From: a virus | Virus record (IMG/VR): IMGVR_UViG_3300010160_000003 | Coordinates: 1-64,000 of that record | Direction: 5' to 3' (one strand) | DNA length: 64,000 nucleotides | In this document: in pieces, positions 30,802-45,703 of the stretch | Layout of the letters: the number at the start of each line of letters is the position of its first letter | Numbering within the stretch: position 1 is the stretch's first letter | The notes under the pieces: model-generated | The model's input: only the letters and a program-made list of their open reading frames with translations | What the model was told of the DNA's origin: nothing | Databases searched by the model: none | Translations under genes and position numbers: made by a program

Positions 30802-31330
30802 AACACTTATTTGTCCAACCTGTAATAAAGAATGGGAACTTCGTTGGGGAATCTTTGCCCATGAATCATTATCTAGACATATGAGGGAACATGATTAATC
30901 TTGAGATCCCTGATCCATTTGAAACTTTTGTATCAAAAAAATATATTAATTATAAAGGGTATGTACATGATTTTTTTATTAGAGAATGGTCTTATAGGTG
31001 TTTAACTTGTAAGGATAATATGTCTGCTCCATCCCGCAAAATTATGACAAAGATTAGATTATTTCATACAAGAAATGAGTGCACGGGTGGATATTAATTA
31101 CTTTATTGCAATAAACCTTCAAACCTGATAGAATGGATACATAAGGAGAAGTATGTTTTGTAATTATTGCGGGAATAGATTAGAACACGGTGATTGTAAT
31201 TATTGTAATGATAATAACAATGCCCTTAGAGAATTTGAGGAAGAAGATGATTAATGCTTTAGTTTTAATCCCTGCATTTATTGCTGGGTATGTAGCATGT
31301 TATTTTGTTATGACCTATAAGGTCAAATAA

Positions 31331-31693
31331 ATTAAGGTTTGTAGCAAATGTGGGCTTAACTTAGATAAGTCCTTTTTCTCTCCATCTTCTGGTGGGAAAT
31401 ATTTAAGGCCAGAGTGTAGGTCTTGTGCTTCCAAATTAGCAAAGCAAAGGCTAGAACTAAGGAAGGTTTGGGGATATCCAGAAGAAGATCACATATGCCC
31501 TATTTGTTTAAAAAATGAACAAGAACTCAAGGGTACTGGAGGAAATGCTAGTATCTGGGTAGTAGATCATGACCACATAACAAATAGTTTTAGAGGACAT
31601 ATATGCCACAATTGTAATCGTGGTCTTGGTGTATTCCAGGATAATGTTGATAGATTAGAAAGAGCAATTAGTTATCTAAGTTCGGAGCGGTAG
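31331..31693 (+). CDS. Endonuclease VII-type HNH protein with no ATG/GTG/TTG start (not in ORF track)
   Basis: 120-codon frame IKVCSKC...ECRSC...CPIC...VVDHDH...FRGHICHNCNRGLG; stop codon lies inside tRNA-Ile. Confidence 0.75.
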   Translation: MKVCSKCGLNLDKSFFSPSSGGKYLRPECRSCASKLAKQRLELRKVWGYPEEDHICPICLKNEQELKGTGGNASIWVVDHDHITNSFRGHICHNCNRGLGVFQDNVDRLERAISYLSSER

Positions 31694-31756
31694 CCAAGTG
31701 GTAAAGGCATCAGCCTTATATGCTGAAGATCGTGAGTTCAACCCTCACCCGCTCTA
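31684..31756 (+). tRNA. tRNA-Ile (TAT)
   Basis: Acceptor GGAGCGG/CCGCTCT; anticodon arm TCAGC-CTTATAT-GCTGA; T-arm GTGAG-TTCAACC-CTCAC. Confidence 0.85.
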
Positions 31757-31757
31757 C

Positions 31758-31833
31758 CCCTAAGTATGCCCTGCGGTTTCTACCCGCTTGAAAGGCTAAC
31801 GGATACATGCAGGTTCAATCCCTGTCTTAGGGA
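31758..31833 (+). tRNA. Atypical tRNA-like RNA (TCT/Arg anticodon, no D-arm)
   Basis: Acceptor CCCTAAG/CTTAGGG; T-arm GCAGG-TTCAATC-CCTGT; GCGG-TTTCTAC-CCGC arm; D-arm missing. Confidence 0.6.
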
Positions 31834-31866
31834 CTTTGGTTCAAATCTATATGATATAATTAAACT

Positions 31867-32211
31867 ATGCCATATAAAGATCCAGAAAAACAAAAAGCAG
31901 CGCAGAGTGCTTGGTATAAAAAAAATAAAGAATTAACATATTCAAGATCTTTAAATAGCAAAGAAAAACGTAAAAACATAGTTAGAGAAATAAAAGAATC
32001 TTCTCCGTGTAAAGATTGTAATATTTTCTATCCATACTATATTATGCATTTTGACCATATGGATTCATCAAAAAAGATTGATAAAATTTCTTCAATTATT
32101 CATACATCCAGTTTAAGTAGTATTTTAAAAGAAATAGAAAAGTGTGAACTTGTCTGTTCAAATTGTCACTCTAAAAGAACATGGAAGCGTCAGCACGGAC
32201 TGATGCTATAA
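31867..32211 (+). CDS. HNH endonuclease
   Basis: CKDC...HFDH...EIEKCELVCSNCH. Confidence 0.8.
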   Translation: MPYKDPEKQKAAQSAWYKKNKELTYSRSLNSKEKRKNIVREIKESSPCKDCNIFYPYYIMHFDHMDSSKKIDKISSIIHTSSLSSILKEIEKCELVCSNCHSKRTWKRQHGLML

Positions 32212-38844: not shown

Positions 38845-39003
38845 CTAGGATAGAACTTTAATTAGTATAGCATATCCAGCCCATAGCCCTACAATTCCTG
38901 CGACTCCCGCAAAAACTGGTGGTGCTGGTACTGGCAATTTGAATGCAGCAAATATTATGCCACATCCAAAACCTGTTAGTATTGATAATAATATATCTTT
39001 CAT
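38845..39003 (-). CDS. XapX/DUF1427-like small membrane protein (not in ORF track)
   Basis: Two TM helices around KLPVPAPPVFAGVAGI. Confidence 0.7.
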   Translation of the reverse strand: MKDILLSILTGFGCGIIFAAFKLPVPAPPVFAGVAGIVGLWAGYAILIKVLS

Positions 39004-39446
39004 TGTTTTATTTCATCCTCTGGAAGTAGTGTTTTTAATTCTTTATATGCTTTTGAAATATTTTTCATAGAAGGATAGTCTGGCCTTGACATAGATAGTA
39101 CCTCTCCATATTCATCAAAATGTGATACATCTGCATCAACATCATTAACAAACTTAGTTAATCCTTTTTGTACATTTTCAATATATGAAAAAGCCCAATC
39201 CCGTGAGTCAGAAAGAAATTTAATAAAGTTTTCTTTATGTATTGATTCATCTGAGTCTTCTTTTGTTTTTATAGATTTTGTTAAATCAACATATTCTTGA
39301 AGCAAAGTATTTTCAATAAAAAGTTTTGCAATATCTTTTTTAAGTTTAACAGATTGTCTTAAAACTAAGAAATATGACAATGCAAAGCAAACTGACAATG
39401 TTATAAAAACAACAATAAAAATATCTTTCATATCCCCACTCCACAT
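39000..39446 (-). CDS. Membrane-anchored hypothetical protein
   Basis: N-terminal TM helix followed by coiled coil. Confidence 0.6.
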   Translation of the reverse strand: MWSGDMKDIFIVVFITLSVCFALSYFLVLRQSVKLKKDIAKLFIENTLLQEYVDLTKSIKTKEDSDESIHKENFIKFLSDSRDWAFSYIENVQKGLTKFVNDVDADVSHFDEYGEVLSMSRPDYPSMKNISKAYKELKTLLPEDEIKQ

Positions 39447-45427: not shown

Positions 45428-45703
45428 TTACGAGTCTTTAGATGTCAAACGGTTATATGTTCTTATCCTATGACAATTTGAGCAAACAACCTCACATTTT
45501 GCTATCTCTTTTTTAATTGCTGCCCAAGAAAAACCATCGTGAATCATTCTTGAAACATTATATTTTTTATTACTGAGATGATCAAAATCTAAAACAATAT
45601 GATTTTTTTCTCCACAATCAAAACAACCAGAAGACTCTTTTATTTCCTTTAAGCGTTGCTTAAATTGTTTCTTGCTATAACTTGCCAACTCTTTGTCAGT
45701 CAT
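45428..45703 (-). CDS. HNH endonuclease
   Basis: CFDC...LDFDH...EIAKCEVVCSNCH. Confidence 0.8.
   Translation of the reverse strand: MTDKELASYSKKQFKQRLKEIKESSGCFDCGEKNHIVLDFDHLSNKKYNVSRMIHDGFSWAAIKKEIAKCEVVCSNCHRIRTYNRLTSKDS

What the first reader, a model, noticed from the sequence alone, without database searches (positions are those of the whole stretch)
31758..31833. tRNA-like gene with no D-arm and a rearranged core
Seen: perfect 7 bp acceptor stem, canonical T-arm and an anticodon-like arm with a 7 nt loop (TCT, Arg), but only about 8 nt where the D-arm should be and about 20 nt in the variable position. The 5' GTAT-G-CC can pair with GG-ATAC in the variable region, forming a substitute stem. 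It starts 1 nt after tRNA-Ile, so it is probably co-processed. Inference: a non-canonical tRNA, a decoy for anticodon nucleases or synthetases, or a tRNA mimic, rather than a decayed copy, because all stems are intact.
Basis: partly seen in the sequence, partly recalled or inferred. Interest (0 to 1): 0.7.

Follow-up and report, generated by a model that had tools for sequence, protein, structure and literature searches.

The report
Phage arginine tRNA with rewired core
The 76-nt element is very probably a working arginine tRNA (anticodon UCU) whose D-stem strand and D-loop lie after the anticodon arm instead of before it; this layout recurs in many phages for arginine and isoleucine only, and standard tRNA finders miss it.

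Summary
Window 31758-31833 has a perfect 7-bp acceptor stem, a canonical T arm and an anticodon hairpin (UCU). There are 8 nt where the D arm should be and 21 nt in the variable position. ARAGORN and the Rfam tRNA model do not call it.

It is not a decayed copy. Pattern scans found more than 120 distinct relatives, mostly inside phage tRNA gene arrays and often with an encoded CCA. They fill anticodon slots that the canonical tRNAs of the same arrays leave empty.

Covariation supports a 3-bp helix between nt 11-13 and the three nt just before a D-loop-like motif (U-A14-R15-Y-G18-G19-N20). R15 covaries with the last nt before the T stem, as in the Levitt 15-48 pair. The tRNA core therefore seems to be kept, with segment 10-21 moved to the 3' side of the anticodon arm.

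Only Arg (UCU, ACG, CCU, UCG) and Ile (UAU, GAU), plus CAU, anticodons occur. Position 20 is A in 97/97 Arg members and U in 25/26 Ile members, matching ArgRS and IleRS identity rules.

Cultured Streptomyces, Microbacterium and Stenotrophomonas phages carry such genes; four of the five located are unannotated and one is mislabelled. I found no published description. Charging and decoding are inferred, not shown.

The parts
31684..31756 (+). Canonical tRNA-Ile(UAU), the immediate upstream neighbour. It is probably on the same precursor as the element.
   Evidence: ARAGORN; Rfam RF00005 70.1 bits. Only C31757 separates its discriminator from the element.
31758..31833 (+). The whole element: a permuted-core tRNA-Arg(UCU), 76 nt without CCA.
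   Evidence: Sequence; family alignments and covariation; my structural detector finds exactly this one place in the genome.
31758..31764 (+). Acceptor stem, 5' strand (positions 1-7).
   Evidence: 7/7 pairs with 31826-31832. L003 carries the compensatory change T4C + A72G. All 7 pairs show double changes across the family.
31765..31766 (+). U8 A9, invariant in the family.
   Evidence: Invariant columns in A1 and A2.
31768..31770 (+). GCC, the D-stem strand that runs on into the anticodon stem (equivalent to canonical 23-25).
   Evidence: Pairs with 31794-31796. The two variable pairs are standard in 42/42 and 83/83 sequences, with 3-4 pair types each, and no shuffle reaches this. The helix is 100% paired in the count of structure pairs.
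31772..31788 (+). Anticodon arm: a U.U mismatch plus 4 bp, loop UUUCUAC, anticodon UCU at 31779-31781.
   Evidence: Sequence; stem covariation. The arm closely resembles that of the canonical tRNA-Arg(TCT) upstream of the HNH homologue in L006/L007.
31789..31793 (+). Linker UGAAA (equivalent to 44-45 plus a connector to position 10).
   Evidence: Conserved in this subfamily. Length is 3-10 nt across the family.
31794..31796 (+). GGC, the second D-stem strand (equivalent to canonical 10-12).
   Evidence: Covaries with 31768-31770.
31797..31808 (+). U + A14 A15 C16 G18 G19 A20 U A21 + C A + U48: a D-loop equivalent followed by a short variable-region remnant.
   Evidence: Motif T-A-R-Y(1-4)-GG-N in every member. 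R15 and the last nt before the T stem are A-T in 38 and G-C in 4 of 42 sequences. Position 20 is A in 97/97 Arg members and T in 25/26 Ile members.
31809..31825 (+). T arm (5 bp, loop UUCAAUC with T54 T55 C56 A58; G53-C61 kept).
   Evidence: Sequence; covariation.
31826..31833 (+). Acceptor stem 3' strand and discriminator A73. No encoded CCA (next bases CTT).
   Evidence: Sequence. CCA is encoded in 21 of 40 and 52 of 125 distinct relatives.
31867..32211 (+). HNH endonuclease gene 34 nt downstream, with its own promoter-like GGTTCAA...TATGATATAAT about 9 nt before the ATG. This is context, not part of the RNA.
   Evidence: ORF; homologues next to tRNAs in other phages; no Pfam hit at E 0.01, so the HNH label rests on motifs and annotated relatives.
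31331..31693 (+). Endonuclease VII-family ORF that ends inside tRNA-Ile (context).
   Evidence: Pfam PF02945, E 1.6e-14; ORF without a standard start codon.

Best explanation
The element is a functional elongator tRNA-Arg(UCU) of the phage with a permuted core. The acceptor stem, T arm and anticodon arm are canonical. The block equivalent to positions 10-21 (one D-stem strand plus the D loop) is encoded after the anticodon arm. The chain order is therefore 1-9, 22-43, 44-45 plus linker, 10-21, a short variable remnant ending in 48, then 49-73. The D stem (3 bp here) closes around the anticodon arm and stacks on it. The D-loop equivalent occupies the variable-region position, from where G18 G19 can reach the T loop, A14 can reach U8 and R15 can reach Y48. 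This would rebuild an L shape of normal size from a three-way junction. The likely life cycle is as follows (inferred throughout). The element is transcribed together with tRNA-Ile(UAU). RNase P cuts at 31757/31758. The 3' end is trimmed and CCA is added. Host ArgRS charges it through A20, C35, U36 and A73. EF-Tu carries it through the normal 7/5 acceptor-T helix. It then reads AGA (and perhaps AGG), the phage's commonest arginine codon.
For: Shown: (1) Purifying selection. The syntenic relative L003 has neighbouring proteins only 50-80% identical, yet its element is 74/76 identical and the two differences form a compensatory acceptor pair. (2) Family. 40 distinct sequences came from a UCU-specific scan of metagenome and genome contigs, and 83 more from an anticodon-free scan of viral contigs. 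All fit one template. (3) Structure. On 84 sequences, 94.1% of cells pair against 59.2% in shuffles and at most 47.6% when partners are slid. The new helix is 100% paired, with double changes in 36 and 30 sequences. The 15-48 pair covaries in 42/42. The proposed structure is within 0.5 kcal/mol of the MFE. (4) tRNA behaviour. Members sit in tRNA arrays at tRNA-like spacing, and 21/40 and 52/125 have an encoded CCA. Arrays of 15-24 tRNAs contain Arg(CCT/TCG/ACG/CCG) but no canonical Arg(TCT). Only 2 of 163 members share a locus with a canonical tRNA of the same anticodon. A 97%-complete related phage has a canonical tRNA-Arg(TCT) and no permuted copy. (5) Identity. Only Arg and Ile (plus CAT) anticodons occur. 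Position 20 is A in 97/97 Arg members and T in 25/26 Ile members, and the discriminator is A in 26/26 Ile members. This matches the published bacterial determinants: Arg A20, C35, U/G36, A/G73; Ile U20, A73 (PMC9976931). (6) Demand. AGA makes up 48% of the phage's Arg codons (16.3 per 1000), and the genome has no other tRNA-Arg.
Against: There is no expression, processing, charging or decoding data, so every functional step is inferred. The window's copy lacks an encoded CCA and has a U.U at 27-43, leaving a 4-bp anticodon stem. The 3D reading (which nucleotide stands for which canonical position) rests on sequence motifs and covariation, not on a structure. The fourth D-stem layer would be a U.U in most members, and some subfamilies need a bulge. 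Thermodynamic folding alone is unremarkable (z = -0.98). Family members were retrieved with patterns taken from the element itself, so the census is biased towards look-alikes.
Confidence: 0.75

Rival explanations
1. A non-decoding tRNA mimic or decoy. It would be folded and processed like a tRNA but used to soak up or distract a host tRNA-targeting nuclease, a synthetase or a modification enzyme.
For: Phages with these genes also carry tRNA repair and turnover genes: RNA ligase, CCA-adding enzyme and a Ro protein in Mildred21, and RNA ligase in A3Wally. The rearranged core would plausibly change recognition by enzymes that read the D arm.
Against: A decoy need not avoid duplicating canonical isoacceptors, yet only 2/163 co-occur with the same anticodon. 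A nuclease decoy has no need for position 20 and the discriminator to switch with the anticodon between Arg and Ile rules. The EF-Tu-binding 7/5 helix and the encoded CCA are kept.
Confidence: 0.1
2. The permuted gene is chiefly a cleavage-resistant allele linked to homing endonucleases. On this view, HNH enzymes that cut canonical tRNA-Arg/Ile genes of competing phages spread together with a rearranged, still functional tRNA gene that they cannot cut. This is compatible with the best explanation and concerns why the layout exists.
For: HNH/EndoVII-family ORFs lie within 100 nt of 17/137 distinct permuted tRNAs, against 32/1145 canonical tRNAs in the same loci (odds ratio 4.9, p 4e-6) and 4/168 canonical Arg/Ile. 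Such ORFs directly abut the element in the window, L013, Mildred21, SOVA965 and A3Wally.
Against: About 88% of members have no such neighbour. The HNH homologue in L006/L007 sits beside a canonical tRNA-Arg(TCT). Counts are not corrected for shared ancestry. No cleavage site is known.
Confidence: 0.15
3. A decayed tRNA-Arg pseudogene or a chance tRNA-like sequence.
For: tRNA finders reject it. The MFE z-score is only -0.98.
Against: There are compensatory changes in every helix, and more than 120 distinct conserved relatives, including some in cultured phages. My detector gave 0 false positives in 3 x 1.83 Mb of shuffled sequence.
Confidence: 0.01
4. A precursor that is rearranged or edited at the RNA level into a canonical tRNA, as with the permuted tRNA genes of red algae, or a cis-acting processing signal for the downstream HNH mRNA.
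For: The gene order is permuted relative to a canonical tRNA. Some host phages encode RNA ligase. The HNH gene starts 34 nt downstream.
Against: Restoring canonical order would need three cuts and three ligations, and no splicing motifs are visible. The permuted RNA itself satisfies the stem and tertiary covariation. Most members have no adjacent HNH gene, and that gene has its own promoter-like site.
Confidence: 0.03

Closest known systems
Canonical bacterial and phage tRNA-Arg(UCU), for example the tRNA-Arg(TCT) upstream of the HNH homologue in L006/L007
   Same: 7-bp acceptor stem, 5-bp T stem with a TTCRANN loop, anticodon loop UUUCUAC, A20-type D-loop motif GGA(U/C)A, A/G73, and position within phage tRNA clusters.
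   Different: The block 10-21 lies 3' of the anticodon arm. The secondary structure is a three-way junction, not a four-way cloverleaf. The Rfam tRNA model gives no hit for the window's copy and 25-32 bits for two relatives, against 32-63 bits for nearby canonical tRNAs.
D-armless mitochondrial tRNAs of animals, for example nematode mt-tRNA-Ser(UCU) (review PMC7609411)
   Same: Only a short connector lies between the acceptor and anticodon stems. By coincidence the anticodon is also UCU.
   Different: The mitochondrial forms have lost the D-loop/T-loop contact and often shrink the T arm. Here the GG motif, U8, A14, the 15-48 pair, a full T arm and a D-stem equivalent are all kept. ARAGORN's mitochondrial mode does not call it.
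Permuted tRNA genes of the red alga Cyanidioschyzon merolae (PMC3728597, abstract listed)
   Same: The gene-level order of tRNA segments differs from the canonical order.
   Different: In the alga the 3' half precedes the 5' half, and processing yields a canonical mature tRNA. Here an internal block is moved and the RNA appears to function as encoded.
Allo-tRNAs and 8/4 or 9/3 tRNAs found in bacteria and phage tRNA clusters (PMC5389517)
   Same: They are non-canonical tRNAs found by mining metagenomes, and some lie in phage tRNA gene clusters.
   Different: Those alter the acceptor/T split and carry long variable arms with a normal D-arm position. This family keeps the 7/5 split and moves the D segment.

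Membership tests
tRNA (elongator, bacterial type) | 7-bp acceptor stem with discriminator and a 3' CCA (encoded or added) | tested here: met
   7/7 pairs, A73. All seven pairs covary. CCA is encoded in 52/125 relatives, though not in the window's copy.
tRNA (elongator, bacterial type) | T arm: 5-bp stem, loop T54 T55 C56 R57 A58, G53-C61 | tested here: met
   GCAGG-TTCAATC-CCTGT. G53-C61 is invariant and the other pairs covary.
tRNA (elongator, bacterial type) | Anticodon arm with a 7-nt loop, U33 and a purine at 37 | tested here: met
   Loop TTTCTAC; the stem is 4 bp plus U.U here and covaries in the family.
tRNA (elongator, bacterial type) | D arm as a hairpin between positions 10 and 25, 5' of the anticodon arm (four-way cloverleaf) | tested here: not met
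   Only 8 nt lie between the acceptor and anticodon stems. ARAGORN and Rfam do not call it. The D-stem partner strand and D-loop motif lie 3' of the anticodon arm.
tRNA (elongator, bacterial type) | Core tertiary partners: U8-A14, R15-Y48, G18 G19 facing the T loop | tested here: met
   U8, A14 and GG are invariant. The 15-48 pair is A-T in 38 and G-C in 4 of 42 sequences. Their spatial contacts were not testable.
tRNA (elongator, bacterial type) | Aminoacylation and decoding on the ribosome | not testable with these tools
   Inferred from identity elements and from anticodon complementarity within arrays.
tRNA-Arg identity (bacterial ArgRS) | A20, C35, U/G36, A/G73 (PMC9976931 Table 1) | tested here: met
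   Window: A20 at 31803, C35 at 31780, U36 at 31781, A73 at 31833. A20 is present in 97/97 Arg-anticodon members, and the Ile members have U20 instead. The assignment of position 20 assumes the D-loop mapping.
Mitochondrial-type D-armless tRNA | D-replacement loop with loss of D/T-loop contacts; detectable by ARAGORN -mt | tested here: not met
   No call in -mt mode. The GG motif and a full T loop are retained.
tRNA pseudogene | Stems decay at random among homologues | tested here: not met
   94.1% of cells are paired, with 588 double-change cells against 170 in shuffles.

The most novel reading that the evidence does not exclude
A previously unrecognised topological class of functional tRNAs exists in phages, confined to Arg and Ile. 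It arose and spread because the rearranged gene or RNA escapes an attack that canonical tRNA-Arg/Ile suffer. The attack could be DNA cleavage by tRNA-gene-targeting HNH homing endonucleases (which are enriched beside these genes) or RNA cleavage by host tRNA-targeting defences. The tRNA is still charged and still decodes.
Probability: 0.2. Interest if true: 0.95.

Novelty: new variant of a known kind. Interest (0 to 1): 0.85.

Why it matters
If these RNAs are charged and decode, the L-shaped adaptor can be built from a different strand connectivity than the universal cloverleaf. That bears on tRNA folding, on its evolution, and on the design of orthogonal tRNAs.

There is also a practical point. 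Arg and Ile tRNA repertoires of many phages are under-annotated, including well-curated cultured ones such as the Streptomyces phage Mildred21. In Mildred21, two of the three copies are unannotated and one is labelled tRNA-Phe(gaa). This distorts analyses of codon usage against tRNA content.

The restriction to two class Ia synthetase systems and the enrichment of homing endonuclease genes next to these tRNAs both call for an explanation. Because cultured phages carry the genes, the questions can be tested directly at the bench.

Tried and rejected
1. ARAGORN in standard, low-threshold, mitochondrial, intron and tmRNA modes gave no call on the element or on any of 42 bare family sequences.

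2. Rfam cmscan at E up to 10 gave no tRNA or other meaningful hit on the element.

3. Single-sequence folding was uninformative (z = -0.98). The MFE breaks the T arm.

5. I tried reading the hairpin as a D arm, with the anticodon arm further 3'. No 5-7-5 arm can be formed in the remaining 20 nt (by hand).

6. A blastn search of the phage collection with the 1.6-kb region hit only the HNH gene. Short queries built from family members were needed to find relatives.

7. Host-encoded origin: a scan of 185,579 species genomes gave 8 hits. Five are family members, all on MAG contigs with 15-23-tRNA arrays. None is in an isolate genome.

8. Other anticodons: both the strict and the relaxed structural detector found only Arg, Ile and CAT.

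9. Literature: seven full-text searches and four papers read turned up no description of this layout. Subscription-only literature was not covered.

10. MAFFT alignment A1 misaligns the D-stem partner by 1-2 columns between subfamilies. I therefore used an anchored parse in Python and the single-subfamily alignment A2.

Full report
**Observation.** The window is the first 64 kb of a 100,390-bp virus record with direct terminal repeats.
- a 7/7 Watson-Crick acceptor stem (CCCTAAG with CTTAGGG);
- a T arm (GCAGG-TTCAATC-CCTGT);
- a hairpin GCGG-TTTCTAC-CCGC with U33, anticodon TCT and A37;
- only 8 nt between the acceptor and anticodon stems, and 21 nt between the anticodon and T stems.

The canonical tRNA-Ile(TAT) ends with discriminator A31756, so one base separates the two. 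A scan of the whole genome, both strands, for '7-bp acceptor + 5-bp T stem + TTCRANN' finds three places only: tRNA-Asp, tRNA-Ile and this element. ARAGORN in all modes and the Rfam tRNA model (E up to 10) do not call it. Single-sequence folding is unremarkable (z = -0.98).

**Close relatives.** An exact-pattern scan of viral contigs found two relatives.
- L002 differs by one base.
- L003 comes from a syntenic but diverged phage: neighbouring proteins are 50-80% identical and the HNH protein is 70% identical. Its element is 74/76 identical, and the two differences (T4C, A72G) restore one acceptor pair. The upstream tRNA there has anticodon CAT, not TAT.
- Homologues of the downstream HNH gene sit next to tRNAs in many phages.
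- In L006/L007 the homologue (67% identical) follows a canonical tRNA-Arg(TCT) whose anticodon and T arms resemble the element's.
- That phage, 97% complete, has no permuted copy.

The element therefore occupies the role of tRNA-Arg(UCU).

**The family.** A looser pattern that excludes class I tRNAs by spacing gave 53 metagenome loci and 8 genome loci.
- Forty distinct sequences of 74-81 nt fit one template. Each has a different but complementary acceptor stem, and 21 of 40 are followed by CCA.
- They lie in tRNA arrays at normal tRNA spacing.
- Arrays with 15-24 tRNAs contain Arg(CCT, TCG, ACG, CCG) but never a canonical Arg(TCT).
- ARAGORN calls none of the bare sequences.
- Among 185,579 species genomes the only members are on MAG contigs that carry dense tRNA arrays.

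**Structure.** RNAalifold recovers the acceptor, anticodon and T stems, with many compensatory changes.

A further helix joins nt 11-13 to the three nt just before a conserved motif T-A-R-Y(1-4)-G-G-N. The pairings seen include GCC/GGC (window), ACC/GGT, CGG/CCG, CGC/GCG, AGG/CCT and CTC/GAG.
- In 42 sequences the two inner pairs are standard in 42/42, with 3 and 4 pair types. No shuffle out of 10,000 reaches this.
- In an independent set of 83 sequences, chosen without regard to this helix, the same pairs are standard in 83/83 with four Watson-Crick types each.
- The count of structure pairs on alignment A2 (84 sequences) gives 94.1% paired cells, against 59.2% in shuffles and at most 47.6% with slid partners. 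The new helix is 100% paired.
- The motif after the helix matches the D-loop consensus (A14 R15 Y16 Y17 G18 G19 N20). R15 and the last nucleotide before the T stem are A-T in 38 and G-C in 4 of 42 sequences, which is the Levitt 15-48 pair.
- U8 and A9 are invariant.
- For the window's copy this structure has -21.1 kcal/mol against an MFE of -21.6.

*Inference from this.* The strand 11-13 runs straight into the anticodon stem, as canonical 23-25 and 26 do. Its partner is followed by the D loop, as canonical 10-13 is. The RNA therefore reads 1-9 | 22-43 | 44-45 plus linker | 10-21 | remnant ending in 48 | 49-73. From my own knowledge of tRNA crystal structures, not tested here, the three new junctions (9 to 22, 45 to 10, 21 to 46) join residues that are neighbours in the canonical core: the 9-12-23, 45-10-25 and 21-8-14 triples. 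An L shape of normal dimensions is therefore plausible.

**Which amino acids.** Of these, 102 are family-like and 83 are distinct. Their anticodons are ACG 22, TCT 21, TAT 17, GAT 11, CCT 8, CAT 2 and TCG 2.

A structural detector run over all 262 loci held (1.8 Mb) found 163 members, 125 of them distinct, and only one overlapped an ARAGORN call. It gave no false positive in three shuffled copies. A relaxed version found the same anticodon set.
- Position 20 is A in 97/97 Arg-anticodon members and T in 25/26 Ile members.
- The discriminator is A in all 26 Ile members.
- These are the published bacterial determinants: Arg A20, C35, U/G36, A/G73; Ile U20, A73 (PMC9976931).
- Only 2 of 163 members share a locus with a canonical tRNA of the same anticodon.
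- In loci with several members, permuted and canonical genes cover complementary anticodons.

**Demand in this phage.** AGA is 48% of arginine codons (16.3 per 1000) and ATA is 28% of isoleucine codons. The genome's only other tRNAs are Asp(GTC) and Ile(TAT).

**Cultured phages.** Blastn with family members hits Streptomyces, Microbacterium, Rhodococcus and Stenotrophomonas phages and a crAss-like Bacteroides phage. Almost all hits have no annotated feature under the match.

| Phage | Coordinates | Assignment | GenBank annotation |
|---|---|---|---|
| Streptomyces phage Mildred21 | 73703-73779 | Ile(GAT) | none |
| Streptomyces phage Mildred21 | 91367-91442 | Arg(TCG) | tRNA-Phe(gaa) |
| Streptomyces phage Mildred21 | 94857-94933 | Arg(ACG) | none |
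| Stenotrophomonas phage SOVA965 | 38979-39053 | Arg(TCT) with CCA | none |
| Microbacterium phage A3Wally | 93609-93685 | Arg(ACG) | none |

The Rfam tRNA model scores two of the Mildred21 copies at 32.0 and 25.2 bits, around its threshold of 29. This explains sporadic and wrong calls.

**Mechanism and rivals.** The best reading is a charged, decoding tRNA-Arg(UCU). The processing, charging and decoding steps are inferred.
- A pure decoy is unlikely, given the anticodon complementarity and the identity switching.
- A pseudogene is excluded by the covariation.
- RNA-level rearrangement into a canonical tRNA is unparsimonious.
- Why the layout exists is open. HNH/EndoVII-family genes lie within 100 nt of 12% of distinct permuted tRNAs, against 3% of canonical ones in the same loci (odds ratio 4.9, p 4e-6, not corrected for ancestry). 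This prompts the idea of an endonuclease-resistant allele. Escape from host tRNA-targeting nucleases is another possibility. Neither was tested.

**Novelty.** Reviews of non-canonical tRNAs (PMC7609411), the allo-tRNA paper (PMC5389517), a survey of viral structured RNAs (PMC10690425) and seven full-text searches gave no description of this layout. The search does not cover subscription-only literature, so prior description cannot be excluded.

Noticed in passing
window 31331-31693 (+): An endonuclease VII-family ORF (Pfam PF02945) has no ATG, GTG or TTG start. It follows in frame directly after the TAA stop (31328-31330) of a short hydrophobic ORF, and its own stop lies inside tRNA-Ile.
   Followed up: partly
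window 31840-31866; L005-L009 just upstream of position 2501: There is a conserved promoter-like block, GGTTCAA...TATG(A/G)TATAAT, about 9 nt before the ATG of the HNH gene. This suggests a nearly leaderless mRNA. The block is conserved among HNH homologues that sit beside different tRNAs.
   Followed up: partly
window 45449-45700 (-): A paralogue of the HNH gene. In the related phage L007, the canonical tRNA-Arg(TCT) plus HNH pair lies among genes that match this 43-52 kb part of the window rather than the 31-kb region.
   Followed up: no
L092:1537-1628, L107:78-170, L130:5065-5151: ARAGORN-called tRNA-Arg(TCT) genes of 87-93 nt with a normal D arm and a long, stem-forming variable arm (class II-like). 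This is unusual for arginine tRNAs.
   Followed up: no
L096:853-920, L121:225-294, L121:759-827, L109:146-214, L139:5633-5704, L142:4984-5055: These are further short (69-73 nt) tRNA-like genes in the same phage tRNA arrays. Each has a perfect acceptor stem and T arm, and several have CCA. ARAGORN does not call them, and they do not fit the permuted template.
   Followed up: no
L262:21368-21443 (NC_042008.1 91367-91442): GenBank annotates this gene of Streptomyces phage Mildred21 as tRNA-Phe(gaa). It fits the permuted template with loop CTTCGAA, which gives anticodon TCG (Arg), and it has A at position 20. A similar match in phage EGole is annotated tRNA-Leu.
   Followed up: partly
loci L084-L261: HNH/EndoVII-family ORFs are about five times more often within 100 nt of permuted tRNAs than of canonical tRNAs (17/137 against 32/1145 distinct genes). 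They directly abut the permuted gene in SOVA965, A3Wally, Mildred21, L013 and the window.
   Followed up: partly
L263:1495-1571 (OQ198717.1, Kehishuvirus 'tikkala'): An unannotated 90-nt gap between tRNA-Trp and tRNA-Met in a crAss-like Bacteroides phage holds a permuted Ile(GAT)-like gene. It has two U.U mismatches in the acceptor stem, so it may be a weakened or degenerate member.
   Followed up: partly
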